A stretch of 19,641 nt of DNA from a virus (lineage: Duplodnaviria > Heunggongvirae > Uroviricota > Caudoviricetes), in the IMG/VR virus record IMGVR_UViG_2671181085_000003; one strand, 5' to 3'. A program made the position numbers and the translations under genes. Position 1 is the first letter of the stretch. The number at the start of each line of letters is the position of its first letter. Shown piece after piece: positions 1,448-19,349 of the stretch. Below the pieces are notes generated by a model, which ran no database searches, was not told the DNA's origin, and saw only the letters and a program-made list of their open reading frames with translations.

Positions 1448-1457
1448 AAAACGGGAT

Positions 1458-2156: not shown

Positions 2157-2485
2157 CAGTTCACCACCTGCTTAAACTCGGCACTGAATTCCACCCGCAG
2201 CATGCGAACCCGTGATGACCACGCAGCACAGGTCACCTTTATCTGCCGGTATGCATAGGGTGGCTTCCACAAAAATGCCTTCCAGCCCCCGTGCTCTGCC
2301 AGAAACGCTTCCAGATGCCGGGCCTCCTCCCGGGTCACGGAAAGCGTCACCCTGTATGTTTTCAGGTCAGCATTCAGCCCTGCCGCCATACGCTGTGAGT
2401 ACCCGTCACCAAAACGCACTTCACGCACCGACGGCTGCGAGTTCACCTCCATATCCGGCTTCACTTTCCAGCGAAAGGTTTTCAT
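2156..2485 (-). CDS. M: Tail tip protein M
   Basis: 109-aa ORF, same length as lambda gpM; start/stop overlaps with H and L typical of translational coupling. Confidence 0.85.
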   Translation of the reverse strand: MKTFRWKVKPDMEVNSQPSVREVRFGDGYSQRMAAGLNADLKTYRVTLSVTREEARHLEAFLAEHGGWKAFLWKPPYAYRQIKVTCAAWSSRVRMLRVEFSAEFKQVVN

Positions 2486-5055: not shown

Positions 5056-5898
5056 ATCTCACACCTCCGGAAATCCCCGCTGAAGCCATCATTAATGCGA
5101 CATCATCCTCGCTGACATCCACCACATCCGCAGAAGGTGAAATATCGCCCCCTCCCTCCCCACCGAACCGGACGCCTCCGGCAAGTCCTGCCGCTTTCTG
5201 CATCAGCATGTCTTCCTCATCCGGCCTCTCCGTCTGCGCTTCCTCACGCCGGGGGACGAGCAGACTGAAATCCGAGGGATGCATATCCGGATCGCAAAAA
5301 AACAGGCTGAGTACGGCGTACGTCAGCCCGGAAAAATGCATATCCAGCTGGGTATCGTGAAAATAATGCGTGCGGTAAAAACGTCGCCAGTCGGCATATT
5401 CGGTGGATGTCATCCCGGCAAGCATGGCTCGCCAGTCGGCTCTCCCCATCTCACGCGCCAGTTTCAGGACAAAGTTCAGCTCGCCTTCGAATGCTTTTTT
5501 GATGTTACCGGCTCAGTCGCTTCTGCTTTCCCGGTTTGTTCAGGATCGGCATCGTGCCGGTTATCCAGCATACCTGAAAGATAAAGCACCCGGTTCGTTG
5601 CCTGATTCAGTGCATCAGCAGGCCATCCCAGCATCACTTCACGGCGGATCTGCTGCATCTCTGTCTCCGGAGAGGCCAGAGTGCCTTTGAGGGAATGGGA
5701 ATGCCATAGCGACATCGCCACAAGCAGGGATGCCGTTTCCAGATATCGCTGGTTAATGTGCACGGCATCATGCTCCGTTGTCTCCTGTTGTGCTGCGTCT
5801 GAAACAAACTTCATATAATCAAACCGCTGCAGCGCAGACAGCTCCGACAGCGTGACGGACACCCCGTTATATTCAAATTGTTCTGTTTTCAGGAACAT
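5036..5898 (-). CDS. T: Tail assembly chaperone G-T fusion, made by programmed -1 ribosomal frameshift
   Basis: The T frame (5036..5512 open) is -1 relative to G and overlaps the G 3' end; slippery heptamer A_AAA_AAG at 5494-5500 (minus strand) sits in the correct register at G codons 134-135. Predicted fusion is about 287 aa. Confidence 0.7.
5476..5898 (-). CDS. G: Tail assembly chaperone G
   Basis: Start at internal ATG (MFLKTEQFEYNGVSVTLSELSALQ...), giving 140 aa, the lambda gpG length; the ORF-track start upstream at 6012 is rejected. Confidence 0.8.
   Translation of the reverse strand: MFLKTEQFEYNGVSVTLSELSALQRFDYMKFVSDAAQQETTEHDAVHINQRYLETASLLVAMSLWHSHSLKGTLASPETEMQQIRREVMLGWPADALNQATNRVLYLSGMLDNRHDADPEQTGKAEATEPVTSKKHSKAS
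5494..5500 (-). other. -1 programmed frameshift slippery heptamer A_AAA_AAG
   Basis: Zero-frame reading TC-A AAA AAG (Ser-Lys-Lys) in G; the -1 frame reads AAA AAA and continues open into T. Confidence 0.65.
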
Positions 5899-5914
5899 GC
5901 TTGATCTCCTCCCC

Positions 5915-6664
5915 TCAGCCCGCAGCGCCATCCGTGACGGTGATCTCCGCCACCGCCGCAAACTCACCGTTGCCGGTGACAACAGGGATCTGCGCTTTAC
6001 CTGCCGCAACACCTTTCACGGTGATCGTGTTCCCTTTCACGGTAATGGTGGCGAAATTCTGATTTGCCGACGTTGCGCGGAATGTTTTATCCGTTGCGCC
6101 TTCCGGCTGAACGGCCACAGTCAGGGTGGTGCTCTGACCTTTTGCCACATTCCCCGTTAGTGGCGTCACGGTAATACCGGTGACCGGTGTGATTTCTCCC
6201 CGATCCTCCGCCAGTGACGGACGACCAATATTGGTGATTTTTACCGTACGGGTGATCACTTCTTTGGCGGTCACCGCTTTACCAATGGCGCTCACCCAGC
6301 CACGGAACACATCCACCGTGCCGTTCGGGAAGCGGATTTTGTAGGCCCGGGTCTCGCTGCTGTCAAACCAGGCAATCAAATCGCGCTGCCCTTTCTCGCC
6401 GGGCTTCCAGGCCAGCGTAAAACTGGTGTCACCGGCGGATTTCTGCCCCTGCCCGGTGGATACCCAGTCAGCATCCTCATCATCCAGATAGTTATCGTCG
6501 TAGGATTCCGCCGTCATCTCGCCGGGGGTCAGATCCTTTATTTTTGCCAGACGCGTCCACTCATCATCTGAGAGCGGGTTTGCATAAGCATCGCCCTTAC
6601 CGGTGTAAACCCAGAGCGTGGTGCCGGAACCTTTTACCGGCGCCAGGGGATTTGGTGTTGCCAT
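5915..6664 (-). CDS. V: Major tail tube protein V
   Basis: 249-aa ORF (lambda gpV is about 246 aa); C-terminal Ig-like (Big_2-type) segment with TVTV/ITV repeats; lambda gene order. Confidence 0.9.
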
Positions 6665-6671
6665 ATCATCC

Positions 6672-7067
6672 TCACATCTCGTATGTAATGGAATAAGTCA
6701 GATCTGCAGAGCTCCACAATGCCATATCGTCATCACGACGATACTCATAGCCCTGCGTAACCAACGTGGTAATCATGCCTGCCAGTGCAGGGATCGCCGC
6801 CATCGCCGGGTAAATCCGGCTTTCCATCCACTGATCAAGCTCTGAATCCGGTACCTGTGCCGGTAAAAACACCTCAATATGCAGTGTGGCCCGCCAGGTA
6901 TCAGCATCCAGCTCTTCACCGGTATACTCTGCATCCGTCAGATAAACCGCGACCGCCGGAAAATCCGCCTCCTCAAAAACAGCGGGGCGACCATCAAACA
7001 GCGTCGCCCCGCTGTCATGCTTCTCCAGTGCATCCAGTACGGCTGCACGGATATCAGTATGTTTCAT
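6672..7067 (-). CDS. U: Tail terminator protein U
   Basis: 131-aa ORF, same length and position as lambda gpU. Confidence 0.85.
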
Positions 7068-7639
7068 CGTTTTATCGCAATCCTCAGTTGTTGTTTCAGC
7101 GCGTATGCCAGTTCTTTGGGCAGGCGTTCACGACGGATACGGTCAACGTTTTCATCAAACGCCTGTTTCAGTGGGGCCGCCATCGGGATTTTCACCACCT
7201 GAATGGGAAGGCGATTACGCTTTTTCCTGCCCTTGTCGTCATTGCCCTCCTCATATCTGGCCTGGGGAAGACGTTGCATAACATGCCAGCGCCCATTATT
7301 TAATCGCTGGATAAATGCCCGCTGATAACGATGCTGACCGGCTTTGAGTATGCTGTCCGGACGACGCCCCAGCATTCTGATCCCCAGCTTAATCACTGGG
7401 AGATCACCGCGGTTAACGATAATTTTTGCATTCGGATTTCTGACCGTGGCCCGTTTCAGTCTGGAGCGTTCCTTAACCAGTTTCCGGCGTACCTTTGTCT
7501 CCCGGGCAACCTGTGATGAAGACTGATTAATCGCCGTTGTGGCCACGCGGTTAATCGTCATTGCTGAAGCCGCCGGAATGGCGTTATTACGAACCCGGCT
7601 CAGATTATCAATCGCCTGATCAAGCCCTTTTATCGCCAT
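7064..7639 (-). CDS. Z: Tail completion protein Z
   Basis: 191-aa ORF between FII and U, as in lambda. Confidence 0.8.
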   Translation of the reverse strand: MAIKGLDQAIDNLSRVRNNAIPAASAMTINRVATTAINQSSSQVARETKVRRKLVKERSRLKRATVRNPNAKIIVNRGDLPVIKLGIRMLGRRPDSILKAGQHRYQRAFIQRLNNGRWHVMQRLPQARYEEGNDDKGRKKRNRLPIQVVKIPMAAPLKQAFDENVDRIRRERLPKELAYALKQQLRIAIKR

Positions 7640-7654
7640 AATTTCACCCTGCGT

Positions 7655-8008
7655 TTATCGTCGCCGGTTAACAGCGGGTGGTTGCCCACGGTTGAGCCAG
7701 AGATAACAGCTTCCCCCGTCATCCGGAGAAACACGATCCACCCAGAACATCTCGCCGTTAATGGTCAGCGTGTCACCACGCCGCACGGCACGCACCGTAT
7801 CCGTCCGCACAAATAATGACGGGCTGCTTCCTTCAATACGGACCCCGCCACCGGCAAAACCCAGCGACTCCGGATCGTCAAAAACCCCCTGAACTTCGCC
7901 GCCACGTTGTGCTCCGGAGGTGAACTGCGCACGGATCCCCATCACTTCAACGATCGTACTGTCCACCCCGGCAAGGGCAGCATCAAAGGCATTCTGAAAA
8001 TCACGCAT
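7655..8008 (-). CDS. FII: Head-tail connector protein FII
   Basis: 117-aa ORF, same length and position as lambda gpFII. Confidence 0.8.
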   Translation of the reverse strand: MRDFQNAFDAALAGVDSTIVEVMGIRAQFTSGAQRGGEVQGVFDDPESLGFAGGGVRIEGSSPSLFVRTDTVRAVRRGDTLTINGEMFWVDRVSPDDGGSCYLWLNRGQPPAVNRRR

Positions 8009-8384
8009 ATTCAGCCGTTCCGTGCTGTATCATGGCCGTTGCCAGTGATGATGGCACCAGAACACGCATACCCCGTAACGCCAGCTCAACGGGACGACCT
8101 GTCTCCGGGCAATACCCCATTACTTGCAGGCACTTCCGTACCCGGACGGCTTTAACATCATCCGGAGCATCCGTGTTGTTCAACTGCTCACCATCGTCTG
8201 TGTGATTTTGATCAGCCCCGCTCTCATCAGAGTGCATAATGCCCTCCGGGGAAACAGCAAGCTCCTCTTCCCACTCAGACACACGTTGAGCAATATCCGC
8301 AGCACTCCCCGACATATCCGCCTCGCGCCCCAGCAGGCCAGCCAGTTCACGAAGACGATTCAGATTTTCTTCTTTTGTTGCCAT
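8001..8384 (-). CDS. FI: DNA packaging / head assembly protein FI
   Basis: Start chosen at ATG 8384 (MATKEENLNRLREL...) preceded by a GGGGG Shine-Dalgarno-like run; the ORF-track start at 8432 is a GTG. Acidic middle region; position between E and FII. Confidence 0.65.
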   Translation of the reverse strand: MATKEENLNRLRELAGLLGREADMSGSAADIAQRVSEWEEELAVSPEGIMHSDESGADQNHTDDGEQLNNTDAPDDVKAVRVRKCLQVMGYCPETGRPVELALRGMRVLVPSSLATAMIQHGTAEYA

Positions 8385-8435
8385 CTCAGCCCCCTGTGAA
8401 AAAAGACACGGGGGCATATCGCCCCCACTCACGGA

Positions 8436-9464
8436 TTATTTCACCTGAACCACCACAAACTCATCCGGATCCGGCAGCACCATCAGCGGAGCGGACTGCG
8501 TCATGGTGAATTCACGGGCCGGATCGCCAACGGTCAGCCAGTGTTTCGGATAACGGGAAGAGGCCACCACACCTTCGGACAACGCCTGCGCATCCTGAAT
8601 GGCACCATAGCAACGGATGCCATCAGCAGCCGTATTTCCCAGGACCAGCGTGCCCTCCGGCAGATAACGTTTTTCGGTACCGTCCTCTGCCACATAAGAC
8701 GTTTTCGCCACCACAATGGCCAGATCGCCGTAATACCCCTTGAAGGACACCACTGCGCCCAGATCTTTCACTGCCGTTTCGAGTTGTGAATTTGAGCCGC
8801 GACGGGTATCCAGTTTTTCGCGGAACAGCTTAAAGCCATTCAGCAGACGCCAGACCGTACCGTCCATAATGGCGATATTCACAAGACCGCTGGCCTGATC
8901 GCAGTAGAGGTCAATATCATGCGTCGGATCAAACGTATCACGGTCCTGCTCAGACCATTTTTTACCGTCAGCCTGCTCAATGTTATTTCCTTCAGAGCGC
9001 CCGAAATCAACCTCGACAGTATCAAACTGCTCCCCTTCCATGGTGTATTTGCCATACAGAACGGCATTCACCGCCTGCATTTCTTCCACCTGGACAATGG
9101 CGTGCTCTTCCTGTTTGAGGTTATCGGTGATGATACGCAGACGACGGTAGGCCGGGTCGTTCAGCTGCGCCGGATCTTCACCGGGAAGGCGCTCCACCGC
9201 CTGCTGGTAATTAAATTCGTGTTTCGGCTTGACGTAGCCCGGACGCAACACGCGGGTTTCACCACCACGATGACGCAGCACTTTTCCTTCAACAACCGGG
9301 GAGACATAGGCTGCCACCGGCGTTTTTCCGGTAATTTTATCCAGCATCACCTCTTCGGTGTGGAAATTCACCGTACGGCGGAAAAACAGCTCCAGAAACA
9401 GCACACGAAATTTCACTTTTTGTTCGGTATAACCGAGTAACTGGCGGGTCGTAAACAATCCCAT
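8436..9464 (-). CDS. E: Major capsid protein E
   Basis: 342-aa ORF; long conserved stretches match my recollection of lambda gpE (GYVKPKHE, EEMQAV, KLDTRRGSNS, ETAVKDLG, GDPAREFTM, QSAPLM, DPDEFV). Confidence 0.95.
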   Translation of the reverse strand: MGLFTTRQLLGYTEQKVKFRVLFLELFFRRTVNFHTEEVMLDKITGKTPVAAYVSPVVEGKVLRHRGGETRVLRPGYVKPKHEFNYQQAVERLPGEDPAQLNDPAYRRLRIITDNLKQEEHAIVQVEEMQAVNAVLYGKYTMEGEQFDTVEVDFGRSEGNNIEQADGKKWSEQDRDTFDPTHDIDLYCDQASGLVNIAIMDGTVWRLLNGFKLFREKLDTRRGSNSQLETAVKDLGAVVSFKGYYGDLAIVVAKTSYVAEDGTEKRYLPEGTLVLGNTAADGIRCYGAIQDAQALSEGVVASSRYPKHWLTVGDPAREFTMTQSAPLMVLPDPDEFVVVQVK

Positions 9465-9521
9465 AAATCAGTTCCTTTCATTCAGAAATCAGTCAGGCCA
9501 ACGCGGTGGCCTGATAACGTG

Positions 9522-9869
9522 TTACGGCAGCGCCACGTGACTCAGGGCTGTGCCGACAAAGGCGTTGGCCTTTTTGTGTTCATCCACACTTTCAGGCCAG
9601 CGGACTGCCTCCGTCGCAAAGGTCCCCGACTTGTAATACGTCAGCACCGTCTCTGTGCCTTCAAGCGGCAGTACCAGTATGCCAACCGCACTACCGGCTT
9701 TCTGTCCGTCCCAGACCACCAGTTTCCCGGTGGCTTCATCCAGCATCAGGGGCGTCAGTGCCGGTGTTGCCTGAGAAATCCCGCTGCTGCCTGTGGCGGT
9801 ATGAGCCGGATCATTACCGGCAAAAATACGTACTTCCGCACGCTGTTCAGTGATGGTTTTCGTCACCAT
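9522..9869 (-). CDS. D: Head decoration protein D
   Basis: 115-aa ORF with DPAHTAT, TPLMLD, WDG, AVGIL and YKSGTF motifs matching lambda gpD. Confidence 0.9.
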   Translation of the reverse strand: MVTKTITEQRAEVRIFAGNDPAHTATGSSGISQATPALTPLMLDEATGKLVVWDGQKAGSAVGILVLPLEGTETVLTYYKSGTFATEAVRWPESVDEHKKANAFVGTALSHVALP

Positions 9870-9904
9870 TTTGTTAAAACCTCATATTGATGTCAGCACT
9901 GACT

Positions 9905-10507
9905 TCATGGCATGGCCATGAGCATTTTCACGTCCGCATCACCGTCTGCTGACGTCTGTGGCACGCCACCCTGCACCGCTGCCGGTGAATAGTTCGCCAT
10001 GAAATGTTCAAACAGGGCGGTTGTGGATGCAGAAACCGGTTCTGCCTTACCTGATCCCGCAGCCAGCACAGCCCGGGCGTTCTCCACGGTCATTCCCGGG
10101 CAGGCCGCCAGTTTTTCAGCCTGCGCCTCAGCCCCTTTTGCCTCATCCAGATCCATAATCTGATCACGGAGTGAGAGCCCGGCATCCGCCCGTGGTGCAG
10201 CCGCCAGGACAGGGCGGGCTTTTTCCACCGTCATCTCCGGCATCGCCGCCAGCGTTGCCGCCAGTTGTTCACGACCTTTCGCTTCTTCACACGCCATAAT
10301 GCGATCGGCTTCACTCTGCGCGGATGCCACCGGCTGCTGCGGTGCTGCCGCGGCCAGAATCGCCCGGGCCTGTTCAACGCTCATGCCCTGTTGTCCTGCC
10401 AGCATCGTGGCAAGCTGTTCACGTCCTTTCGCTTCCTGACACGTCAGGATCCCCATCACTCGCTGGTTCTCCTGCGCGGCAGCTTCCGTTGCGGTTAATT
10501 GCGGCAT
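9905..10507 (-). CDS. Nu3: Scaffolding protein Nu3 (internal in-frame start within C)
   Basis: Internal ATG at 10507 (MPQLTATEAAAQENQRV...) preceded by a perfect AGGAGG Shine-Dalgarno with about 5-nt spacing; in frame with C and sharing its stop, as for lambda Nu3. Confidence 0.6.
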   Translation of the reverse strand: MPQLTATEAAAQENQRVMGILTCQEAKGREQLATMLAGQQGMSVEQARAILAAAAPQQPVASAQSEADRIMACEEAKGREQLAATLAAMPEMTVEKARPVLAAAPRADAGLSLRDQIMDLDEAKGAEAQAEKLAACPGMTVENARAVLAAGSGKAEPVSASTTALFEHFMANYSPAAVQGGVPQTSADGDADVKMLMAMP

Positions 10508-11410
10508 AGTGCCTCCTGTATCATGTGTGTTCAGCGCCGCAGCCATCACGCTGATGGCATCCGACGCATTGATTAATTCATCCGCCAGTCCGGCCTTAAT
10601 ACCGGACTGACCTTCAAAAACGGCAGCCTCTGTCCCCGTGACGGCATCCACAGACAGACCGGTATACATCGCCACTTTTTCGGCAAACATCCGGTGCGCC
10701 GCATCAATCCGCTGCTGCATGTCCTGGCGAACCTCTGACGGCAACGCTTCAAACTGATTGCCATCCACCTTATGCGCCCCGGCATAAATCAGCGTGATAT
10801 CCACTCCGGCCTGCGCCAGATGACCGGCATAGCTGACATGGCCCATCATCACGCCAATGGAGCCGATACGGGATGTCTGGGTAACCAGCCGTCGGGAGCA
10901 GGCCGACGCCAGCAGCATGGCCGCAGAACAGGCCGTGTCATTACACAGTGCCCAGACCGGCTTCTGCTGACGGAGGCGGTAAATCATGTCAGCGCAGTCA
11001 AACGCACCGGCGGCCTGCCCGCCCGGACTGTCAATATCCAGCAGTACGCCCCGGACAGAGGTGTCCGCCATTGCCTGCTGAAGACAGGCAACAATGCCGT
11101 CATAGCCTGTCATTCCGGAAAATGGCCGCATGCCACCCAGCCGGTGCACCAGCGTGCCGGTCACCGGCAGTACAGCAATACCGTTCACCACCCGGTAAAC
11201 ACGGGCCGGTCGTTTACCTCCGGCCATGTACTCGTCCGTTTCAGCCAGCATCCCGGGCGCATCAAGCTGTACCTGCTGTTGTGGTAACGAAAGACTTGCT
11301 GCCCCCATCTCGCGCCCGAGCGCGCAAAAGAAAACCCGCGCATAGGCGGGCTCCAGAAGCAGCGGTTCATTGAATGCTGCGGCAATAATGTGTGAAAGAT
11401 TACGTCTCAC
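9905..11410 (-). CDS. C: Capsid assembly protease C (S49/ClpP-like), with in-frame scaffold region
   Basis: 501-aa ORF; N-terminal AAFNEPLLLEPAYARVFFCAL and the VLPVTGTL, GMTGYDGI, AFDCAD, KPVWAL, RLVTQTSRIGSIGVMM, KVDGN blocks match lambda gpC. GTG start overlapping the B stop. Confidence 0.85.
   Translation of the reverse strand: MRRNLSHIIAAAFNEPLLLEPAYARVFFCALGREMGAASLSLPQQQVQLDAPGMLAETDEYMAGGKRPARVYRVVNGIAVLPVTGTLVHRLGGMRPFSGMTGYDGIVACLQQAMADTSVRGVLLDIDSPGGQAAGAFDCADMIYRLRQQKPVWALCNDTACSAAMLLASACSRRLVTQTSRIGSIGVMMGHVSYAGHLAQAGVDITLIYAGAHKVDGNQFEALPSEVRQDMQQRIDAAHRMFAEKVAMYTGLSVDAVTGTEAAVFEGQSGIKAGLADELINASDAISVMAAALNTHDTGGTMPQLTATEAAAQENQRVMGILTCQEAKGREQLATMLAGQQGMSVEQARAILAAAAPQQPVASAQSEADRIMACEEAKGREQLAATLAAMPEMTVEKARPVLAAAPRADAGLSLRDQIMDLDEAKGAEAQAEKLAACPGMTVENARAVLAAGSGKAEPVSASTTALFEHFMANYSPAAVQGGVPQTSADGDADVKMLMAMP
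10055..10462 (-). repeat. Tandem triplication of a ~40-aa module in the C/Nu3 C-terminal region
   Basis: Three consecutive copies of I-M-x-x-x-EAKG-(R)E-x-x-A-x-x-LA-x-x-x-x-M-(T/S)-VE-x-AR-x-(V/I)-LAA visible in the translation and as repeated DNA. Confidence 0.7.
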
Positions 11411-12992
11411 GTGGTGTTGTCTCCTCTTCCGGCCTGCGGCTCTCCGCTATCTGCTGCTGATACGCCTGCGCTATCCACACCGGACGTGAGAGTCCGGCTT
11501 TTTCCCGCTCTGCGGATTCCCTGACCTGCTGGCGGAAAATGTCCTGATAATCCTCACCCATCAGCGCCAGCTCTTTCTCATACGTGCTCAGTCCGGCCTC
11601 AATGCGCATCACCGATTCCTGGACCTCCTTGAGCCCGTCAATGGCCATTCTTCCTGCGCCAATCCACTCTGCCCGCGACCAGGCTGAACGCGCCTGATAA
11701 AAATCAAAACGTGCCCGTGGCGGACGGATAATCCCCCGAAGAAGTGCCTCTTCCAGCCAGCAGGAAAACATCTGCGTGGCCAGCCGGGCCGCAATAAATT
11801 TTCGTCGTCCCATAAAATAACGCCACGACTCATTGGCGGAGGCGCGGGCACTTGAGTAACTGACCTTCGAGTAATCACGAGACAACTGTTCGTAGGAAAC
11901 GCCAAGACCGGCGGCGATATACCGCAGCAGCGCCTGTTCAAGCGCAGAAAATCCATTGTCTGAATCCTGCGCAGTCTGCAGTTTCAGATCATCCCCGGGG
12001 AAAAGGTGCGGAATTTTGACACCACCCAGCGTCACGTGATTCGTGTCATACCAGCTGGAGAACTTCTCCAGAATATTAATAAGCGGATTATCCTTCTGCT
12101 CCTGTGGCGCGCCGGCGATATATTCAAAGGCCTTTTCGGTATCAAGTTCACTTTCAATCGTCGCTGCATACATCGCCTTCACTATGGCCGACTGAAGCTG
12201 TGTTGCCTGCAGGGAATCGAGCATCTTCAGCCGTTCCATGACGCTGTAAAACTGATTAGCCCCACGGGTCTGCCCGTCCTCCACCGGCTCGAAAATATGC
12301 AGCATGGTCGGACGCCCGGTGGGAAGTTCACGCGGGATCCGTTCCCATCGTCCACTACCAGAGAACGGAAAATCATCCTCACAGATATGGTACGCGACGG
12401 CACGGCCATATCGATCGACCTCCACACCGGCCCGCAGAAAACGGTACCCCATACCGTGTCCAGGCGTGTCCACCCGTTTCGGACTCACGGCTTTAAAACG
12501 CGTACGGAATAACTGCGTGGTTTCCGTATCCCAGACCGGCTGCACAAAGATTTCGCCGTTAAACGCATGAACGCCCACACCTTCACGGATAAATTCCGTG
12601 AACGTGCGTTTTCCTTCCACGTCGATCTCGCCAAACATCCCTTCTGCGTATTCCGACCAGGCCGCCTCCACCTCATCGACAAAACTTTTTGCCGCAGTCT
12701 CCCGCATCCCCAGCCAGCGCCAGTTCGGACGGTAGCTGATCAGAAACATATGCCCGACAATATGATCCTTATGCAGGGCCACCGCATTAGCCGCTATCCC
12801 GTTATTGCGCACCAGATCATCTGCACGGGCATTCCCCAGACGCAACGCGGGCAGCAGGGCCGCATCGGCACTCTGCGAGGGTGGCAACCACTCCGCCATT
12901 TGCCCGCCAAATCCTGCACCGCCCCCGTGGTAGCTGAGACTCTCCCGAAGCGGAACGCCGTTCACATCAATCAGGACAGGCGTTCGTTTCAT
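11400..12992 (-). CDS. B: Portal protein B
   Basis: 530-aa ORF (lambda gpB is about 533 aa) between W and C. Confidence 0.9.
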   Translation of the reverse strand: MKRTPVLIDVNGVPLRESLSYHGGGAGFGGQMAEWLPPSQSADAALLPALRLGNARADDLVRNNGIAANAVALHKDHIVGHMFLISYRPNWRWLGMRETAAKSFVDEVEAAWSEYAEGMFGEIDVEGKRTFTEFIREGVGVHAFNGEIFVQPVWDTETTQLFRTRFKAVSPKRVDTPGHGMGYRFLRAGVEVDRYGRAVAYHICEDDFPFSGSGRWERIPRELPTGRPTMLHIFEPVEDGQTRGANQFYSVMERLKMLDSLQATQLQSAIVKAMYAATIESELDTEKAFEYIAGAPQEQKDNPLINILEKFSSWYDTNHVTLGGVKIPHLFPGDDLKLQTAQDSDNGFSALEQALLRYIAAGLGVSYEQLSRDYSKVSYSSARASANESWRYFMGRRKFIAARLATQMFSCWLEEALLRGIIRPPRARFDFYQARSAWSRAEWIGAGRMAIDGLKEVQESVMRIEAGLSTYEKELALMGEDYQDIFRQQVRESAEREKAGLSRPVWIAQAYQQQIAESRRPEEETTPRET

Positions 12993-13195
12993 AACCTCAC
13001 TCCCAGCGGACGACGGCGACGGCGGGTTGTCCCCAGTACCGACTCCGCATCATTGATCGCACGGTTAAGCTCATCCAGAGAAGCCGCCGTATATTCAATT
13101 CTGCGACCATCTTTCTGGACAGACACCACCCGTTTACCGGTTAATAAATCAAGGCGCGCCTGACGCAGCGCCTGCAGTTCAGCGACTGTAACCAT
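12989..13195 (-). CDS. W: Head-tail joining protein W
   Basis: 68-aa ORF, same length and position as lambda gpW. Confidence 0.85.
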   Translation of the reverse strand: MVTVAELQALRQARLDLLTGKRVVSVQKDGRRIEYTAASLDELNRAINDAESVLGTTRRRRRPLGVRL

Positions 13196-15107
13196 TCACT
13201 CCTCCGGACAGCTTCGCTGCCAGTTCTTTCAGGGTTGGCCGGGTCGTCTCTTCTTCCCGGGATTTTGCCAGTACAGCCAGATCAAGCTGCCAGCGTTGCA
13301 CGGACACACGTAATGCCGCGTAGGCATACACCAGGCAGTCCAGCGCTTCGTTACGCCGCTTTTTGTTATCCCACAGCAGACGCATCTTTCCTTTTTCCCA
13401 CTTCTCCACCAGCTCTTCCGCCACCAGTTGCTGCGCCTCTGTCTGCGAAAAAATCTCCGGATCATCAGGAAAACGGATGGCATACGACGTGGCTTCATCC
13501 GCAGGCGTGGGATCGGCTTTCATACGGGCATAGAGAATTTCTTTTGCAGTGTCCGTCCCCACTTCACACAGATACACGCCCCGCTGATTGCGGGTTTTTG
13601 GCATGGTGATCACCGGCTTGCCATAGACAGATGCGCCTTTTACCGGCAGCACCTGGAAAACACCGTGTTTTTTTGATCTCTGATAAACGATTTCACCATC
13701 GATCCCCCCGGTGTCCCAGCAGACACGGGAAATGGTCATTTCAGTGCCATCCGCATGGCGGTATTTTTTGTTGATCGCCGCATCCACACGTAACAGCGTC
13801 TCTTCCTCATCTGGACGTCCCATAATGATGATTTTATCCACCAGAAAGGCTTCCTCTCCCGGAGCCCATCCCCAGACATACATCTCAAAACGGTTTCGCT
13901 GCGAGTCAATGCCCGCCGTCAGATAAACCACCCGGGCAGGCACCGCCGCCGTGTAACGCACAACCTTATCCATCAGTACCTGGTGATCGAGTTTTTCGCC
14001 CACGGCCTCTTCCCAGGTCTCGCCCAGCGTGGTGTTCACAAAAGTTTTCAGGCCGTTGGGATCTTTCAGTGCATCCAGCCAGTCATAGACTATCTGTACC
14101 CAGGTGGTGAACGGACTGTACGCCGTCCAGATATGGAATGTGATGGAGCGCGGCGGCGGAATTTCATTACCCGCAGCGCTGAAAAACGTCAGACCGTCAC
14201 GGGTCCACATCCCCGTGTTTTCACAGATCCACCGCCCGTTGCTCTGGTCAAGCTCAGACTGATGGATCACGCAGCCATGATGTTCACAGAGGTAGAAAAC
14301 GCTTTCGGGGCTGTCCTTCTCCCATTTAAGGCCAAAAGGCGTGGATTCATCGCCAAATTTCAGATACTGCTCCTCCCCACAGTGCGGGCAGGGCACATAA
14401 AAACGCATGAAATGCGCCGACTCGTTGGCCGCTTTTTCGATCTGGCAGGAACCTTTTATTTTAGGCGTCGAGCCGCGAATGGATTTTGGCCATACAGAGC
14501 CCTCAATACGCTTATCCCCCAGCAGGGTTGGCGAGCCCTCTTTTTCAACATCCGGCTCGAACGAGGAAAGTTCGTCATAGCAGACCACATCCACGGATTT
14601 TTCACGGTAGTTTTTGGCGGCAGCGCCGCCCAGGCACCAGAAACCCACACCCGATGAAAAGCGTTTCAGCGTGAGGGTATTATCACGATGTTTACGTCCC
14701 AGCCAGGGAGAAAGTTTTTTCAGGCAGGGAACATCGCGAATCGTCGCCTCCACGTGAGACTTCATAAAATCTTCAGCGGCAGAATCCGTAGGCTGAAAAA
14801 GCAGACTGTTTCGGGATTTATGCTCAATAAAATACCCGGCGACTCCCAGCAACATCTTTGTATAGCCAACACGGGCAGATTTAATCAGATTAACAGTGCG
14901 GATCTGATCATTCCCCATACTGTTCATGATGGCGATCTGGAACGGCAGCGTTTTCCATTCTCCCTCACCATATGAAGATTCTTTAGGCAGATAATAATTT
15001 TGATCAGCCCATTCAGCTGGCGTCACCGGCAATGCCCTTATCAGGGGCTGTAATGCTGTTGTGACAGCGCTCATCATATTATTCAGTTGTTGCTCTGATA
15101 TATTCAT
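13179..15107 (-). CDS. A: Terminase large subunit A
   Basis: Start chosen at ATG 15107 (MNISEQQLNN...), which overlaps the Nu1 3' end by about 29 nt as in lambda; 642 aa with extended similarity to my recollection of lambda gpA (EWADQNYYLPKES, SARVGYTKMLLGV, CPHCGEEQYLKFGD, HIWTAYSPFTTWVQIV, FVNTTLGETWEE, RNEALDC). Confidence 0.9.
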   Translation of the reverse strand: MNISEQQLNNMMSAVTTALQPLIRALPVTPAEWADQNYYLPKESSYGEGEWKTLPFQIAIMNSMGNDQIRTVNLIKSARVGYTKMLLGVAGYFIEHKSRNSLLFQPTDSAAEDFMKSHVEATIRDVPCLKKLSPWLGRKHRDNTLTLKRFSSGVGFWCLGGAAAKNYREKSVDVVCYDELSSFEPDVEKEGSPTLLGDKRIEGSVWPKSIRGSTPKIKGSCQIEKAANESAHFMRFYVPCPHCGEEQYLKFGDESTPFGLKWEKDSPESVFYLCEHHGCVIHQSELDQSNGRWICENTGMWTRDGLTFFSAAGNEIPPPRSITFHIWTAYSPFTTWVQIVYDWLDALKDPNGLKTFVNTTLGETWEEAVGEKLDHQVLMDKVVRYTAAVPARVVYLTAGIDSQRNRFEMYVWGWAPGEEAFLVDKIIIMGRPDEEETLLRVDAAINKKYRHADGTEMTISRVCWDTGGIDGEIVYQRSKKHGVFQVLPVKGASVYGKPVITMPKTRNQRGVYLCEVGTDTAKEILYARMKADPTPADEATSYAIRFPDDPEIFSQTEAQQLVAEELVEKWEKGKMRLLWDNKKRRNEALDCLVYAYAALRVSVQRWQLDLAVLAKSREEETTRPTLKELAAKLSGGVNGYSR

Positions 15108-15588
15108 CGAGTAAATCCGGTAATTTATCCCCCGCCCGCGCACACTGATTTGCCCCCTTCGCAATAAGGGTTTTCAGATGGTCAAGATGGCGCGGTGTTA
15201 AATCAGGAAACTGTCGCTGCATGGATAAAGGGATGGAATCAAGCGTACTGGATAACGCCATTGCCAGCTTACTGAGGGCAAAAATACAGAACCCGGTGTC
15301 AATAAGTTTTCCTTTTGACACCTCATTTTTTAACTGCTGTGTAACAGCCTGTTCCGCTGTCAGTTCCCATCTAGCAATAAGCAATTTCTCCTCATAGTCG
15401 TCTTCGCTATCGCCATCAGGCACATCGTTTTTACTTCTCCTCAGATACGATATGTAAAAATCGCGCCAGGCATCCAGATCCAGTTGCCCTCGCTTATTCG
15501 ATATCGGAGCACCCGGCAATTTCTGCAATCTGCGAAGCTGGCGATCGGTCAGACTTAAATGCCTGGCAACTTCAGTCTGCGTAGCCAC
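15079..15588 (-). CDS. Nu1: Terminase small subunit Nu1
   Basis: 169-aa ORF with a GTG start. The C-terminal two thirds resemble lambda Nu1 (TGFCIFALSKLA...LSMQRQFPDL..RHLDHLK); the N-terminal HTH region differs from lambda. Confidence 0.85.
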   Translation of the reverse strand: MATQTEVARHLSLTDRQLRRLQKLPGAPISNKRGQLDLDAWRDFYISYLRRSKNDVPDGDSEDDYEEKLLIARWELTAEQAVTQQLKNEVSKGKLIDTGFCIFALSKLAMALSSTLDSIPLSMQRQFPDLTPRHLDHLKTLIAKGANQCARAGDKLPDLLDEYIRATTE

Positions 15589-15635
15589 TCCTCACCTCGC
15601 AAAAACTCTCACCTCACAATCACAACAAAACAGGT

Positions 15636-15735
15636 CATGTCCGGTTCACATGCCCATTTTTTGCGCATGTCCGGTTCACAGAAGACCTGTTTTTATATTT
15701 TTCATATAGTTAACTTGCAGAGAAACCGGACATGG
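15636..15735. promoter_or_regulatory. cosB-like terminase binding region with three R elements
   Basis: CATGTCCGGTTCACA at 15636-15650 and 15666-15680 (direct, 30 bp apart) plus an inverted copy AACCGGACATGG at about 15722-15735, separated by an AT-rich stretch (15681-15720). This mirrors the lambda R1/R2-bend-R3 layout but with different repeat sequence. Confidence 0.65.
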
Positions 15736-15771
15736 ATCCCGGAAAATTTTCATAAATAGTGAAAACCCGCG

Positions 15772-15783
15772 AGGTCGCCGCCC
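15772..15783 (-). other. cosN cohesive-end site
   Basis: Minus-strand sequence GGGCGGCGACCT followed by CGCGGGTTTTC.CTATTTATGAAAATTTTCC, matching the lambda left end as I recall it, lying about 190 bp upstream of Nu1. Confidence 0.85.
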
Positions 15784-16006
15784 CGTAACGGTCTGGATCA
15801 CCGGAAAGGACCCGCCAACGACTTTCGCGTGCAGGCATTAAAAATTTTGCAGTTCCATGCCTAGTTGAAACCTCGATTTCTATAACATCCAATTTTGTAA
15901 ATTTAGATATAGCTCAACTTTTCCCAATGTTTTCAATTGTATAAAAACAATTGGCGTTACGCTATAACACTATACTTAGAATAAGTAAAGATTTTAAGGA
16001 GTTTTA

Positions 16007-17074
16007 ATGAGTCAACATCAATATTATCCACAGCTGAAATGGAAGCCTGCTGAATATGAATCTCTGATGCTTTTAGATCAAACTACGCTCTCTGGTTTTA
16101 CTCCGATCATTACCATTCCAGACATAGACTGGGATTATGAAAACGAATGCTACAAGAAGAGTTTGAGTTCTTACTTATCTGACTTCGGTATTAACCTTGC
16201 GGCATCCTGGAAAGCCAATCGTCCTGTTTTGCTGGATGTTAAATATTTAGATAAACATGGTTCGAGCCGCCATCATCCTCTAGATATGTGTATCCAAGAT
16301 GCTAGAGTAAATGGTAAGGAAATTATCCCTGTTGTTTCTCCCACATATTCAACAAACTATATACATGCTGTTCAACGCAACTTAATCAATGGGCTCGCTA
16401 TATCTATCACCCCCCAGACATGGCACCAATTCACAAGTCTGGTTAACCACTTAAATATTCATCCTAGTTTAATTGATGTAATCATTGATTTTGGAGATAT
16501 TCAAAACGCAACTGATAGTTTAAAACAACAAGCATTAAGCATGGTCAACACATTATCAGGCCAAGCTCCGTGGAGAAACTTGATTTTATCTTCAACCGCA
16601 TACCCGGCATCACAGGCAGGGATACCGCAACATCAAGTTCATCATATTCCGCGCCATGAATACGATCTTTGGATGTACGTAGTACAGAATTTTAGCAATG
16701 GAAGAACGCCAAGTTTTAGTGATTATCCCACCGCTAGCTCTACCATTACGAGCGTAGACCCACGCTTCATGTCTCAGTATGTCTCAGTGAGATATTCGAA
16801 CGATACCTCATGGATCTTTGTAAAAGGTACCGCAGTTAAAGGAAATGGATGGGGCCAAACTAAAAACTTATGTACTACCCTTGTTAGTTCGCCAGAGTAT
16901 CAAGTCTTTGGCTCCAAATTTAGTTGGGGGGATGATTACATTTACCAAAGATCATTAGGCGCTAACAAATCTGGCGGCTCTAAAGAATGGCGTAAAGTTG
17001 CACATACGCACCATATTACGTTAGTCGTGAGACAGCTTTATTGGTTGGCGCAGACTCAGCCTGCCAAGCCTTAA
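16007..17074 (+). CDS. Hypothetical protein, 355 aa, no recognisable motif (accessory island gene 1)
   Basis: ATG preceded by AAGGAG with about 5-nt spacing; about 38% GC in a sample versus GC-rich flanks; opposite strand to all phage late genes. Confidence 0.7.
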   Translation: MSQHQYYPQLKWKPAEYESLMLLDQTTLSGFTPIITIPDIDWDYENECYKKSLSSYLSDFGINLAASWKANRPVLLDVKYLDKHGSSRHHPLDMCIQDARVNGKEIIPVVSPTYSTNYIHAVQRNLINGLAISITPQTWHQFTSLVNHLNIHPSLIDVIIDFGDIQNATDSLKQQALSMVNTLSGQAPWRNLILSSTAYPASQAGIPQHQVHHIPRHEYDLWMYVVQNFSNGRTPSFSDYPTASSTITSVDPRFMSQYVSVRYSNDTSWIFVKGTAVKGNGWGQTKNLCTTLVSSPEYQVFGSKFSWGDDYIYQRSLGANKSGGSKEWRKVAHTHHITLVVRQLYWLAQTQPAKP

Positions 17075-17636
17075 CTTTCCAGCCTACGCGTTTCTTTAAG
17101 GCTGTTCTGACTTCAAGCCTGAGATTCGCCATTGGAATATTTTCCGCAATAATATTCCATAACTCAAATCGGGGCTTGCTTTTGATTCCTTTGGAATAGC
17201 CCCATCGTTCAAGTACGTCGATACATTCATCTTTCCAAAGCAATTGAGCGAGCATCAATGTGTCATGGTTTCGATTAAGCTTTTCTCCACGCATGTGCTT
17301 TATAAGAATGGCGCCTTTTGACCCAACAGAAACCGTTTTAACGCCCCACCAACCTGGGATTAACTTTAATGCTCCCTCAAGATGTTTCTCAGCTACGACA
17401 AGAGTAACCTTGTCCATTACAGAAGAATAATGCTTGATTTGAAGAGGCAAACGCTCCAAAGAGTCATATTCACTTTTGAGCTCGTACCCGTGTATAACAC
17501 CATTTATTACAGCAATGTCTGCTCTACTGGCGCCAAGGGATATGGAAAATTCATCGACCACAAGGCAGTCTGGATCTAAATGCGATTCTTTCAAAAGCTT
17601 ATGATGCACCGCGAACCTAACATCTTGATCTTTCAT
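17016..17636 (-). CDS. Hypothetical protein, 206 aa, predicted PD-(D/E)xK-fold nuclease-like (accessory island gene 2)
   Basis: ATG preceded by AAGGAG with 5-nt spacing; N-terminal region reads CLVVDEFSISLGASRADIAVINGVIHGYELKSE, a hydrophobic-D ... E-x-K arrangement typical of PD-(D/E)xK nucleases. AT-rich. Confidence 0.7.
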   Translation of the reverse strand: MKDQDVRFAVHHKLLKESHLDPDCLVVDEFSISLGASRADIAVINGVIHGYELKSEYDSLERLPLQIKHYSSVMDKVTLVVAEKHLEGALKLIPGWWGVKTVSVGSKGAILIKHMRGEKLNRNHDTLMLAQLLWKDECIDVLERWGYSKGIKSKPRFELWNIIAENIPMANLRLEVRTALKKRVGWKVKAWQAESAPTNKAVSRLT

Positions 17637-17664
17637 GACTTCTCCTTACTCCCTCCGTTATTGA

Positions 17665-17693
17665 ATTATAGCGCACTGCATTTTACTGCATTT
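17665..17693 (-). promoter_or_regulatory. Candidate sigma70 promoter for island gene 2, overlapped by a tandem direct repeat
   Basis: Perfect TATAAT -10 on the minus strand (plus coordinates 17665-17670) about 28 nt upstream of the ATG; -35 is weak; a 10-bp element ACTGCATTT(T) occurs twice in tandem at 17675-17693. Confidence 0.4.
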
Positions 17694-17986
17694 GAGAGAT
17701 TTGACCACTTCAATCACAAAATGCTTATCTGCAGCAACAAGATTCATAGCCATACGACTATGGTGATTACCTTTTGTCTGGAAAACTGACCATTCCACGA
17801 AGATCAGATAGGTCTATAGAATCTTGGTTTGTCATAGCGTTCGCCTTACTTTGAGATGAACCTTTGCTGCATAGGAGATCAGCCCGTCAAGGCTCACCAG
17901 CACTAACTGACTACTCAAAGGCTCATTCCAAAGGGTTTGGTTCGACGTGGTTGAGTGCGCTGCGATGCGCGGTGAAATACCTGTAC

Positions 17987-18014
17987 AAAAATGCCCCGCA
18001 TCTGCGAGGCATTT
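17987..18014 (-). terminator. Hairpin terminator downstream of Rz/Rz1, possibly bidirectional
   Basis: Long inverted repeat AAAATGCC-C-CGCA-TC-TGCG-A-GGCATTTT, A-rich on one side and T-rich on the other, about 40 bp after the Rz stop. Confidence 0.55.
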
Positions 18015-18052
18015 TCCTGAAAGTCACGTATTAAATTTCAGTGAAATTAAAA

Positions 18053-18490
18053 TTATTTTAAGCACTGCGTCCTGATGTACTCCTGCAGGTAGTTGACCTG
18101 CGCGGTTATCTTGTCGATTCCACTTCGGAGACGGTAATAATTGAGTTCAGCATCTGCTGTAAGTCCTGGGCTTTCTCCATCGCCCATGCTGCTGGCTCCG
18201 GTCGTTGACTTTGCACAGGTGGCGGCGACTTGCAGGCGCTTACGCCCAGCAGAAACATCAGCACGGAGACTTTCGATAGTCGCGTTAGCATCAGCAAGCT
18301 CCTTTGTGTATCTGGCGTCAAGTTCTGCTACATCACGTTGACGCTTCTGCATGTCAGCGATGATGTACCTGGCTTTATCGCGCTGTTCTTTATAGGTAAT
18401 GGCGTTATCACGGTAATGATTAACAGCCCATGACAGGCAGACGATGATGCAAATAACCAGAGCGGAGATAATCGCGGCTACTCTTCTCAC
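18053..18490 (-). CDS. Rz: Spanin inner-membrane subunit Rz (i-spanin)
   Basis: Strong similarity to my recollection of lambda Rz ([46 protein letters not shown]). Probable GTG start at 18490 overlapping the R stop (GTGA); the ORF-track start at 18505 is TTG. Confidence 0.85.
18106..18291 (-). CDS. Rz1: Spanin outer-membrane lipoprotein subunit Rz1 (o-spanin), embedded in Rz in another frame
   Basis: ATG at 18291 preceded by AAGGAG; signal peptide with lipobox ([20 protein letters not shown]) followed by a Pro-rich segment ([13 protein letters not shown]); wholly inside Rz. Confidence 0.75.
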
Positions 18491-19020
18491 TGATCTATCC
18501 CCCAACAGGCTAATGCGCTTTCCTGGTCACGACGAATAACCTGTCCGTAGCAGTTATTTGAACGTGTGCGGCAATCACGCCCACCGTCCTTAATCCACCA
18601 GCGAATCGACTCACAGGCACCTTTACGATCACCGGCATTAAGCCGCTTATAAAACGTCGACGGGAAACACTTACCCGGGCCAATGTTGTAAGGACAGAAT
18701 GACGCAATACCCGCTTTCTGGGGTTCAGTCAGTGGCACTTTGATGTTTTTCGCCACCCATGCCAGCGCCTTATCACGCTCAATGGCGTTAACCCGGTCGC
18801 ATTTCCCCTTCGACAGCTTCATGCCAGGAATAACAGGCTTGCCATCCACCATGATGGCACCTCGGCAGATGGTCCAGATACCCGCACCATCACGGTATGC
18901 CGTGGTGTGGTTGCCTTCCTTTTCATCCAGAAACTGGTCGAGGATTTCAGGCGCAGAAGCACCTGCGGCAATCAGCGCCAGAACGGCAGCCGATAAACCA
19001 TAGCGGAGTTTCCTGCTCAT
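18487..19020 (-). CDS. R: SAR endolysin (T4-lysozyme-like GH24 fold, phage 21 R-type)
   Basis: N-terminal weakly hydrophobic Gly/Ala-rich signal-anchor-release segment ([16 protein letters not shown]); catalytic E-x8-D-x5-T spacing ([16 protein letters not shown]); resembles my recollection of R21. Confidence 0.85.
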
Positions 19021-19024
19021 CAGC

Positions 19025-19240
19025 TTACTCTCCCCGTGCCGCCTTACGCCGGTCCTCTCTGATTTTGAAATACAGGTTCGTCAGGTACGTCAGCAGACCA
19101 AACAGCAGACTCCCCAGCACGCCTATTGCCGCCCACTGAGACGGGGAAACCCTGTCCAGCAACTGCAGGAACCAGTAGCCCGTTCCCACCGCTGACGTGG
19201 TGTATGACACACCTGTTGTGATTTTTTCCATCTGGTACAT
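19025..19240 (-). CDS. S: Pinholin (phage 21 S-type), dual-start MYQM
   Basis: [15 protein letters not shown]...[51 protein letters not shown] closely matches my recollection of S21; two Met codons three codons apart; GGGAG Shine-Dalgarno. The ORF-track extension to 19333 is rejected. Confidence 0.85.
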
Positions 19241-19349
19241 ACCCCGTCTCCCGCAATCCGGAAGCTCACAACATGAAAAAGGCCGCCAGTGCTCCACTGA
19301 CAGCCTCGTGTAGTTACTCTGAGTGCCCAACAATTCCCTGTCAAACGTG

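What the first reader, a model, noticed from the sequence alone, without database searches (positions are those of the whole stretch)
16007..17074. Island gene 1 encodes a 355-aa protein with no recognisable catalytic motif
No Walker A, no kinase catalytic loop, no HExxH and no transmembrane segment are apparent. It contains several His-His pairs (RHHPLD, HQVHHIPRHEYD, HTHHITL) and a DFG tripeptide in a context that does not fit a protein kinase. It is encoded on the strand opposite to every phage late gene, like lambda bor, with its own strong RBS. It may be the sensor or partner of the nuclease-like gene 2, or an independent moron.
Basis: seen in the sequence. Interest (0 to 1): 0.6.

Follow-up and report, generated by a model that had tools for sequence, protein, structure and literature searches.

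The report
Beta-family partner of a prophage nuclease
The 355-aa gene is a member of the known "Beta protein" family (satellite phage P4 beta) with a predicted TIM-barrel fold, and it always sits tail-to-tail with a P4-cII-like nuclease gene, so it is half of a two-gene version of a known anti-phage system whose chemistry is still unknown.

Summary
The ORF is real: 16007..17074 (+), 355 aa, AAGGAG 5 nt before the ATG, and all quoted motifs are present. It is under purifying selection (dN/dS about 0.06). It is not an orphan. It matches Pfam PF14350 Beta_protein over its full length (E=8e-56) and NCBI annotates it as "beta family protein". AlphaFold2 (pLDDT 92) predicts a TIM barrel with no specific solved relative. 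Gene 2 (17016..17636, -) belongs to the sce7726 / P4-cII family and has a PD-(D/E)xK nuclease fold with invariant E29, D40, E52 and K54. The two genes converge and their 3' ends overlap by 59 nt. This pairing held in nearly every related locus examined, across Proteobacteria, Bacteroidetes, Actinobacteria phages, plasmids and soil metagenomes, and almost all pairs overlap at the 3' ends. P4 has the same beta-> <-cII layout plus the toxin gene gop, and gop-beta-cII protects against lambda and P1. Gop is absent here. The module (15883-17742, low GC) fills the variable slot between Rz and cos. It is best read as a gop-less variant of a known defence system. Which protein senses and which kills was not determined, and the chemistry of beta is unknown.

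The parts
15883..17742 (.). Whole transferable two-gene module (beta + sce7726/cII-like), a low-GC island
   Evidence: A single 1.86-kb blastn alignment at 75% identity to the Klebsiella prophage module L013. Homology stops at these ends. GC is 0.38-0.44.
15883..16006 (+). Conserved 5' region of gene 1 (presumed promoter region), with the Shine-Dalgarno AAGGAG at 15996-16001
   Evidence: The region is included in the DNA homology to L013. The SD was read from the sequence. No strong sigma-70 consensus was found.
16007..17074 (+). Gene 1: beta family protein, 355 aa, predicted TIM barrel
17016..17636 (-). Gene 2: sce7726 / P4-cII-like protein, 206 aa, PD-(D/E)xK nuclease fold. SD AAGGAG at 17642-17647
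17016..17074 (.). 59-nt antisense overlap of the 3' ends of the two genes
   Evidence: Coordinates. The overlap recurs in relatives. No terminator-like structure lies between the genes. The gene 2 tail encoded here (residues 188-206) is predicted to be disordered.
17637..17742 (-). Conserved 5' region of gene 2: promoter-like TGGTCA-16-TAAAAT (17707-17680), TATAAT at 17665-17670, and tandem AAATGCAGT x2 at 17675-17693
   Evidence: 82% identity over 91 nt to the Klebsiella module, while flanking DNA is unrelated. Promoter scan. The small ORFs here (17658-17798, 17767-17835) are not conserved.
17990..18017 (-). Strong hairpin flanked by an A-run and a U-run (bidirectional terminator-like) just downstream of Rz. 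It is not part of the module but insulates it.
   Evidence: RNA fold -22.6 kcal/mol, z=-4.8, and 0 of 200 shuffles folded as well.

Best explanation
Gene 1 encodes the 'beta' component of a self-contained two-gene prophage cargo module. Its obligate partner is the convergently transcribed gene 2, a P4-cII/sce7726-type PD-(D/E)xK nuclease. The module is a gop-less relative of the P4 gop-beta-cII anti-phage system and sits in the variable slot between Rz and cos of a lambdoid prophage. SHOWN: family membership, predicted TIM-barrel fold, an enzyme-like set of invariant polar residues, near-universal pairing and co-evolution with the nuclease gene, tail-to-tail 3' overlap, and location in mobile elements at cargo hotspots. 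INFERRED: the module is expressed from its own promoters in the lysogen and protects it against superinfecting phages, probably by abortive infection. The nuclease is the DNA-damaging effector, and beta is the faster-evolving component that couples a phage cue to nuclease activity, acting as a sensor/regulator or antitoxin-like restraint. Beta probably does this through an enzymatic or ligand-binding activity at the C-terminal face of the barrel. The 3' overlap implies that the two transcripts are antisense to each other, which could balance their expression.
For: Family: Pfam Beta_protein E=7.8e-56, PGAP naming, phrog_9159. Relation to validated systems: PADLOC PD-Lambda-2_C 4.3e-32 and beta 2.7e-10 for gene 1, and cll 2.2e-31 for gene 2. 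Gene 1 is 22% identical to P4 beta over the full length, and both are 355 aa. Gene 2 is 27% identical to P4 cII. P4 has the same beta-> <-cII convergent layout. Literature: gop-beta-cII protects against lambda and P1, and gop is toxic without beta (PMC9122126). The system is triggered to kill by phage orf184 (10.1101/2023.04.06.535777). [quoted passage not shown] Pairing: 79 of 80 IMG/VR loci seeded on gene 2 carry beta. All 9 viral and 77 of 77 metagenome loci seeded on divergent beta with enough DNA carry a convergent sce7726 gene, and 76 of those 77 overlap at the 3' ends. The same pairing occurs on plasmids of alpha-proteobacteria, Rhodococcus and Acinetobacter. Mantel r=0.83. Beta diverges faster than the nuclease in 84% of locus pairs. 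Nuclease fold of gene 2. Cargo slot: otherwise identical prophages, with the same small terminase WP_000235436.1, carry other genes there. The island is present in 126 of 5426 complete E. coli genomes. Prophage contexts elsewhere are the lysis-terminase gap or next to integrase. Insulating terminator.
Against: No experiment exists for any gop-less beta/sce7726 pair that I could find. In P4 the reported toxin is gop, which is absent here, so the effector in this module is only inferred. Solo sce7726 homologues occur in virulent Staphylococcus, Bacillus and Lactobacillus phages, so the nuclease is not necessarily a suicide effector. Beta also occurs without sce7726, downstream of an Xre-M78 peptidase in the PD-lambda-2 architecture. 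There it could be the effector rather than a sensor. The chemistry of the TIM barrel is unknown: only generic fold matches were found and there is no sequence link to any solved protein or other Pfam family. The near-invariant family Arg at position 133 is Ser in this protein. Promoters were not convincingly predicted, and no transcription data are available.
Confidence: 0.6

Rival explanations
1. Beta is the effector and the nuclease-fold protein is the regulator or sensor. Under this reading the TIM barrel is a hydrolase (for example a metal-dependent phosphodiesterase or nuclease, or a nucleotide-degrading enzyme) that kills or arrests the infected cell. sce7726 would recognise phage DNA structures and release it.
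Against: P4 beta was reported to neutralise gop toxicity rather than to be toxic (cited in PMC9122126). The sce7726 catalytic residues are invariant, which argues that it cuts nucleic acid itself. The fold matches are generic across dozens of TIM-barrel families.
Confidence: 0.2
2. The module is a restriction-modification-like self/non-self pair. Beta would modify or repair DNA, or a nucleotide pool, to protect the host, and the PD-(D/E)xK protein would cleave unprotected incoming DNA without cell death.
Against: Gene 1 has no methyltransferase or TGT signature and matches only Beta_protein in Pfam. gop-beta-cII behaves as a programmed-cell-death/abortive system when triggered by a single phage protein. 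Beta also works with non-nuclease partners.
Confidence: 0.08
3. The module is a selfish addiction or stability element, or a phage-benefit function such as DNA processing during lytic growth or counter-defence, with no role in excluding other phages.
For: The toxin-antitoxin-like descriptions in the literature. The pair also occurs on large plasmids next to partition genes. Solo sce7726 genes occur in strictly lytic phages.
Against: Two homologous systems gave measurable phage resistance. The module occupies variable cargo slots known to hold defence genes and has its own regulatory regions behind a terminator.
Confidence: 0.1
4. Gene 1 is an independent moron unrelated to gene 2.
For: The genes are on opposite strands and each has its own RBS.
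Against: Near-100% co-occurrence, fixed relative orientation, overlapping ends and correlated divergence across phyla.
Confidence: 0.02

Closest known systems
P4 satellite gop-beta-cII anti-phage system (Ghisotti 1990; Rousset 2022, PMC9122126)
   Same: A beta homologue of identical length (355 aa) with a full-length alignment. A cII/sce7726 homologue. Identical beta-> <-cII convergent arrangement. Both lie next to a cos site in a variable cargo locus of a mobile element.
   Different: There is no gop gene, the reported toxin. Identity is only 22% for beta and 27% for cII. P4 cII is 264 aa with a C-terminal extension that is absent here (PADLOC profile positions 5-195 of 265 matched). P4 has a 27-nt gap with a terminator between the genes, whereas this module has a 59-nt overlap. 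The carrier is a lambdoid prophage, not a P4-like satellite.
PD-lambda-2 (Vassallo 2022, PMC9519451): HigB-like A + Xre-M78 peptidase B + beta-like C
   Same: Gene 1 gives its best PADLOC hits to PD-Lambda-2_C (4.3e-32 and 2.2e-25). Both belong to Pfam Beta_protein.
   Different: The A and B components are absent from the island. The strongest hit covers only residues 141-344. The partner here is a nuclease on the opposite strand. True PD-lambda-2-type loci have beta co-directional after the Xre-peptidase gene and lack sce7726.
sce7725 / sce7726 family gene pair (NCBIfam NF033831 / NF033832)
   Same: Gene 2 is a bona fide sce7726 family member (185.7 bits against a cut-off of 70). The two families are reported side by side in genomes (PMC12457778). 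One divergent beta (L112) weakly matches the N-terminus of the sce7725 model (E=0.01).
   Different: Gene 1 itself does not match sce7725. The relationship between beta and sce7725 rests on one weak partial hit.
Lambda bor (a lysogen-expressed cargo gene between Rz and cos)
   Same: Same genomic slot and the same opposite-strand orientation relative to the late operon.
   Different: There is no sequence or functional relationship. Bor is a small outer-membrane lipoprotein.
Generic (beta/alpha)8 TIM-barrel enzymes
   Different: Identity is 5-13%, Foldseek TM-scores are only 0.24-0.53, and there is no profile-level sequence link. No particular TIM-barrel superfamily stands out.

Membership tests
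Pfam PF14350 Beta_protein / NCBI 'beta family protein' | Full-length match to the family HMM above the gathering score | tested here: met
   190.4 bits against a cut-off of 27, with residues 6-342 on profile positions 1-342 of 342. PGAP annotates the identical protein as a beta family protein.
Pfam PF14350 Beta_protein / NCBI 'beta family protein' | Family-wide invariant residues present | tested here: met
   Y6, P8, E16, P33, D77, P108, D161, P200, R216, D239, Y240, R262, Y263, G274, Q284, D309, W328, H335 and H336 are all present. The exception is the 97%-conserved Arg at position 133, which is Ser here.
P4-type gop-beta-cII defence system | Beta homologue | tested here: met
   BLASTP E=2e-7 over the full length against P4 beta. 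PADLOC beta E=2.7e-10.
P4-type gop-beta-cII defence system | cII homologue adjacent and convergent to beta | tested here: met
   BLASTP E=9e-19 against P4 cII. PADLOC cll E=2.2e-31. Layout compared.
P4-type gop-beta-cII defence system | gop gene (small membrane toxin) upstream of beta | tested here: not met
   tblastn with P4 gop found nothing in the window below E=0.1. There is no co-directional ORF upstream of gene 1 here or in other non-P4 lineages.
P4-type gop-beta-cII defence system | Confers phage resistance / triggered cell death | not testable with these tools
   This needs cloning and phage challenge. Only homologues have been tested.
PD-lambda-2 | Component C (beta-like) | tested here: met
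   PADLOC PDLC03984 E=4.3e-32 and PDLC03983 E=2.2e-25.
PD-lambda-2 | Components A (HigB-like) and B (Xre HTH + M78 peptidase) encoded upstream in the same orientation | tested here: not met
   The island holds only two non-nested ORFs of 60 aa or more. Genuine examples with B were identified on plasmids for comparison.
PD-(D/E)xK nuclease superfamily (gene 2, the partner) | alpha-beta-beta-beta-alpha-beta core with E...D...ExK catalytic residues | tested here: met
Classical type II toxin-antitoxin operon | Two co-directional, co-transcribed small genes | tested here: not met
   The genes are convergent, with separate 5' regions.
Type II restriction-modification system | A DNA methyltransferase (or other recognised modification enzyme) paired with the endonuclease | tested here: not met
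   Gene 1 matches only Beta_protein in Pfam. No MTase or TGT family hit was found in 108 family members.

The most novel reading that the evidence does not exclude
The beta/sce7726 pair, not the three-gene P4 locus, is the ancestral and by far the commonest form of this system. It would be a phylum-spanning two-gene immune module in which a previously unclassified TIM-barrel enzyme family (thousands of sequence clusters, no solved structure) controls a PD-(D/E)xK nuclease. Its expression would be balanced by obligatory antisense overlap of the two convergent mRNAs. On this view gop (P4) and HigB/Xre-M78 (PD-lambda-2) are lineage-specific add-ons to the same TIM-barrel sensor or enzyme, which may act on a nucleotide or nucleic-acid ligand by chemistry not yet seen in phage defence.
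Probability: 0.3. Interest if true: 0.65.

Novelty: new variant of a known kind. Interest (0 to 1): 0.4.

Why it matters
The finding turns an apparent orphan into one half of a recognisable defence-type module. It also shows that the textbook P4 gop-beta-cII locus is an elaboration of a much more widespread two-gene core. In every P4-unrelated locus examined the toxin gop is missing, yet the pair is strictly conserved. The accepted picture of gop as toxin and beta as antitoxin therefore cannot explain the core system. Beta is a large family (about 3750 clusters at 50% identity) with a confident TIM-barrel model, invariant acidic, basic and histidine residues, no solved structure and no known reaction. 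It is a well-defined target for biochemistry. The near-universal 3' antisense overlap of the two genes is an unusual and testable regulatory feature. For genome annotation, tools that require all three P4 genes may miss these loci.

Tried and rejected
(1) I looked for a gop remnant or third gene in the 17637-18052 gap. The small ORFs (46 aa, 22 aa) are not conserved in the Klebsiella module, and only about 90 nt of promoter-like DNA is. tblastn with P4 gop was negative.
(3) I looked for an intrinsic terminator between the convergent genes and found none.
(4) I searched the literature for any study of the gop-less pair, of sce7726 or of PF14350. Nothing mechanistic turned up. One broad query was wasted on amyloid-beta papers. 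The Ghisotti 1990 paper is not held.
(5) A protein-kinase reading of the DFG tripeptide is rejected. D161 lies in a barrel beta-strand of a TIM fold.
(6) A metalloprotease, Walker A or membrane-protein reading is rejected. The model is a single globular domain.
(7) The first locus scan of genome contigs returned only 8 loci. Co-occurrence statistics therefore rest mainly on the IMG/VR and metagenome scans, which contain many near-identical contigs. After removing duplicates, 117 distinct pairs remained.

Full report
OBSERVATION. The window is the late region of a lambdoid prophage. Tail, head, portal and terminase ORFs (168-15588) and the lysis genes S/R/Rz (18053-19333) all lie on the minus strand. 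Between the small terminase gene/cos and Rz lies a low-GC stretch, with GC 0.38-0.44 against 0.52-0.62 elsewhere. The ORF of the finding is listed at 16007..17074 (+), ATG start, 355 aa. The quoted peptides RHHPLD, HQVHHIPRHEYD, HTHHITL and DFG are present. AAGGAG sits 5 nt upstream of the ATG. The ORF is under strong purifying selection. Against the orthologues from Klebsiella, Pantoea, Pectobacterium and Edwardsiella (77-79% amino-acid identity, no frame disruptions) dN is 0.145-0.158 with saturated dS, giving dN/dS of about 0.06-0.08.

WHAT GENE 1 IS. Profile search resolves the 'no recognisable motif' problem at once. The protein matches Pfam PF14350 Beta_protein end to end (E=7.8e-56, 190 bits against a cut-off of 27). 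It matches PHROG 9159, of unknown function. In PADLOC it matches PD-Lambda-2_C (4.3e-32, 2.2e-25) and 'beta' of gop-beta-cll (2.7e-10). RefSeq annotates the identical protein as 'beta family protein' (WP_062881308.1). The eponymous P4 beta protein is also 355 aa and aligns over its full length at 22% identity. An exhaustive profile search finds 3753 cluster representatives at 50% identity with E<=1e-3, and 1427 with E<=1e-30. Nearly all of the best 150 listed are single-domain proteins of 350-370 aa.

ARCHITECTURE AND CO-OCCURRENCE. The two genes converge and their 3' ends overlap by 59 nt. P4 has the same beta-> <-cII layout, preceded by gop. Gop is absent from the window and from all other lineages inspected. 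Of 80 IMG/VR loci seeded on gene 2, 79 carry beta and 78 have it convergent and adjacent. The exceptions are one locus where beta is replaced by a kinase fragment and a PP2C phosphatase gene (L062), one rearranged locus and one locus with a broken beta. All 9 viral loci and 77 of 77 metagenome loci with enough DNA, seeded on divergent beta proteins, carry a convergent sce7726 gene. In 76 of those 77 the 3' ends overlap by 29-185 nt, most often by 140 nt. The pair is also found in an E. coli Rac-type phage, in Gordonia and Mycolicibacterium phages, in a Bacteroidetes MAG, and on plasmids of Agrobacterium, Rhizobium, Sinorhizobium, Rhodococcus and Acinetobacter. Over 117 distinct pairs the two identity matrices correlate (Pearson 0.83, and 0 of 500 Mantel permutations reached it). 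The nuclease is the more conserved partner in 84% of comparisons. No terminator-like structure lies between the genes, so the two mRNAs are expected to be antisense at their 3' ends. This last point is inferred.

MODULE LIMITS AND CONTEXT. DNA homology to the Klebsiella module runs from 15883 to 17742 and stops there. It includes about 125 nt upstream of gene 1. It also includes about 105 nt upstream of gene 2, which contain promoter-like hexamers, a perfect TATAAT and a tandem AAATGCAGT repeat. Small ORFs in the 17637-18052 gap are not conserved. A strong hairpin flanked by A and U runs (z=-4.8) lies just downstream of Rz and should insulate the module from late transcription. The island is in 126 of 5426 complete E. 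coli genomes, whereas 1149 genomes carry the neighbouring terminase/cos segment. Sister prophages with the identical small terminase carry YlcI + Rha, small hypothetical genes, or a TonB-family gene in the same slot. In other genera the pair again sits between the lysis cassette and terminase, or next to the integrase of a P2-like element. This is a typical variable cargo locus.

WHAT IS KNOWN FROM EXPERIMENT. P4 gop-beta-cII protects E. coli against lambda and P1, and gop was reported to be toxic without beta (PMC9122126). The system causes cell death when the phage accessory gene orf184 is expressed (bioRxiv 10.1101/2023.04.06.535777). [quoted passage not shown] I confirmed that PD-lambda-2-type loci exist with beta co-directional after an Xre-HTH + Peptidase_M78 gene and without sce7726. 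Beta is therefore a modular component used with at least two different partner sets. I found no study of a gop-less beta/sce7726 pair.

MECHANISM. The following are shown: membership of the Beta family, a predicted TIM-barrel fold with an enzyme-like invariant site, an obligate co-evolving nuclease-fold partner, and autonomous cargo status in mobile elements. The following is inferred, at about 0.6 overall. The module is a lysogen-expressed anti-phage system, probably abortive. The PD-(D/E)xK protein damages nucleic acid, and beta couples a phage cue to that activity. The faster divergence of beta fits a component that contacts variable phage factors. Its reuse with other effectors fits a sensor or regulator. 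The alternative that beta is itself the effector, with sce7726 as the DNA-sensing regulator, is not excluded (about 0.2). This is because beta occupies the 'toxin' position behind RosmerTA-like Xre-M78 genes. An R-M-like protective-modification model (about 0.08) and a pure addiction or phage-benefit model (about 0.1) are less likely. The 'independent moron' reading is effectively refuted.

COMPARISON AND NOVELTY. The locus meets the beta and cII criteria of gop-beta-cII but fails the gop criterion. It meets only the C criterion of PD-lambda-2. It should therefore not be filed as a full member of either system. It is a two-gene variant of a known kind. The comparative data suggest that this variant is the common core form. 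A weak N-terminal hit of one divergent beta to the NCBIfam sce7725 model (E=0.01) hints that the annotated sce7725/sce7726 pairs are a further branch of the same module. The finding as posed, an orphan with no motif, is explained by a known family. What remains open and moderately interesting is the chemistry of the beta TIM barrel, the role assignment within the pair, and the conserved antisense overlap.

Noticed in passing
window 17016-17074; also L003, L004, L012, L023-L191: The 3' ends of beta and sce7726 overlap in antisense in almost all lineages, by 11-185 nt and most often by 140 nt in a soil-metagenome clade. The length of the overlap varies, so the tail-to-tail overlap itself seems to be what is kept, not a particular sequence. 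In the window the overlap encodes a disordered 19-aa tail of gene 2.
   Followed up: partly
window 17653-17742 (minus strand): About 90 nt upstream of gene 2 is 82% identical to the Klebsiella module, while the surrounding DNA is unrelated. It holds a perfect TATAAT (17665-17670) and a tandem direct repeat AAATGCAGT-A-AAATGCAGT (17675-17693) that could be an operator.
   Followed up: partly
window 16403-16405 (codon 133 of gene 1): The Arg that is 97% conserved across the Beta family is Ser in this protein. It is Ser or Thr in the nearest relatives and Lys in the next clade. A consensus Glu at position 36 is Thr here. This may mark altered or lost activity in this subclade.
   Followed up: no
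window 17990-18017: A very stable hairpin (GCCUCGC-AGAU-GCGGGGC extended by A/U runs; z=-4.8) lies immediately downstream of Rz. It looks like a bidirectional terminator separating the late operon from the cargo module. The simple terminator scan missed it.
   Followed up: partly
L062 4001-5810 (IMG/VR contig): In one lineage the sce7726 gene is followed by a co-directional protein-kinase fragment and a PP2C-like phosphatase gene instead of beta. This is the only clear case among the gene-2-seeded loci of the nuclease gene without beta.
   Followed up: partly
phage records (for example Staphylococcus phage vB_SscM-1 at 118880-119371, and Bacillus and Lactobacillus myophages): Distant sce7726/cII-like genes occur alone in about 290 large virulent phage genomes, with no beta detected in those records. 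This suggests a separate use of this nuclease fold for the phage's own benefit.
   Followed up: no
L195 1830-4586; L196 1744-4187 (plasmids): Beta family genes also occur co-directionally after an Xre-HTH + Peptidase_M78 gene (PADLOC PD-Lambda-2_B, also RmrA-like). In Marinibacterium a DUF6932 gene precedes them. This is a second architecture, of the PD-lambda-2 type, without sce7726.
   Followed up: yes
L112 (metagenome) beta protein, residues 5-49: There is a weak hit (E=0.01, below cut-off) to the N-terminus of NCBIfam sce7725_fam. The annotated sce7725/sce7726 neighbour pairs may be a divergent branch of the beta/cII module.
   Followed up: no
window 15589-18052 compared with L192-L194: The interval between the small terminase gene/cos and Rz is a variable cargo slot. 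Prophages with the identical small terminase protein carry YlcI + Rha, small hypothetical genes or a TonB-family gene there instead of the beta/sce7726 module.
   Followed up: partly
L003 3276-3488 (Escherichia phage Rac-SA53): In Rac-SA53 the beta/cII pair lies next to a hok/mok toxin-antitoxin locus and an IS1 insertion, a small cluster of addiction or defence-type cargo.
   Followed up: no
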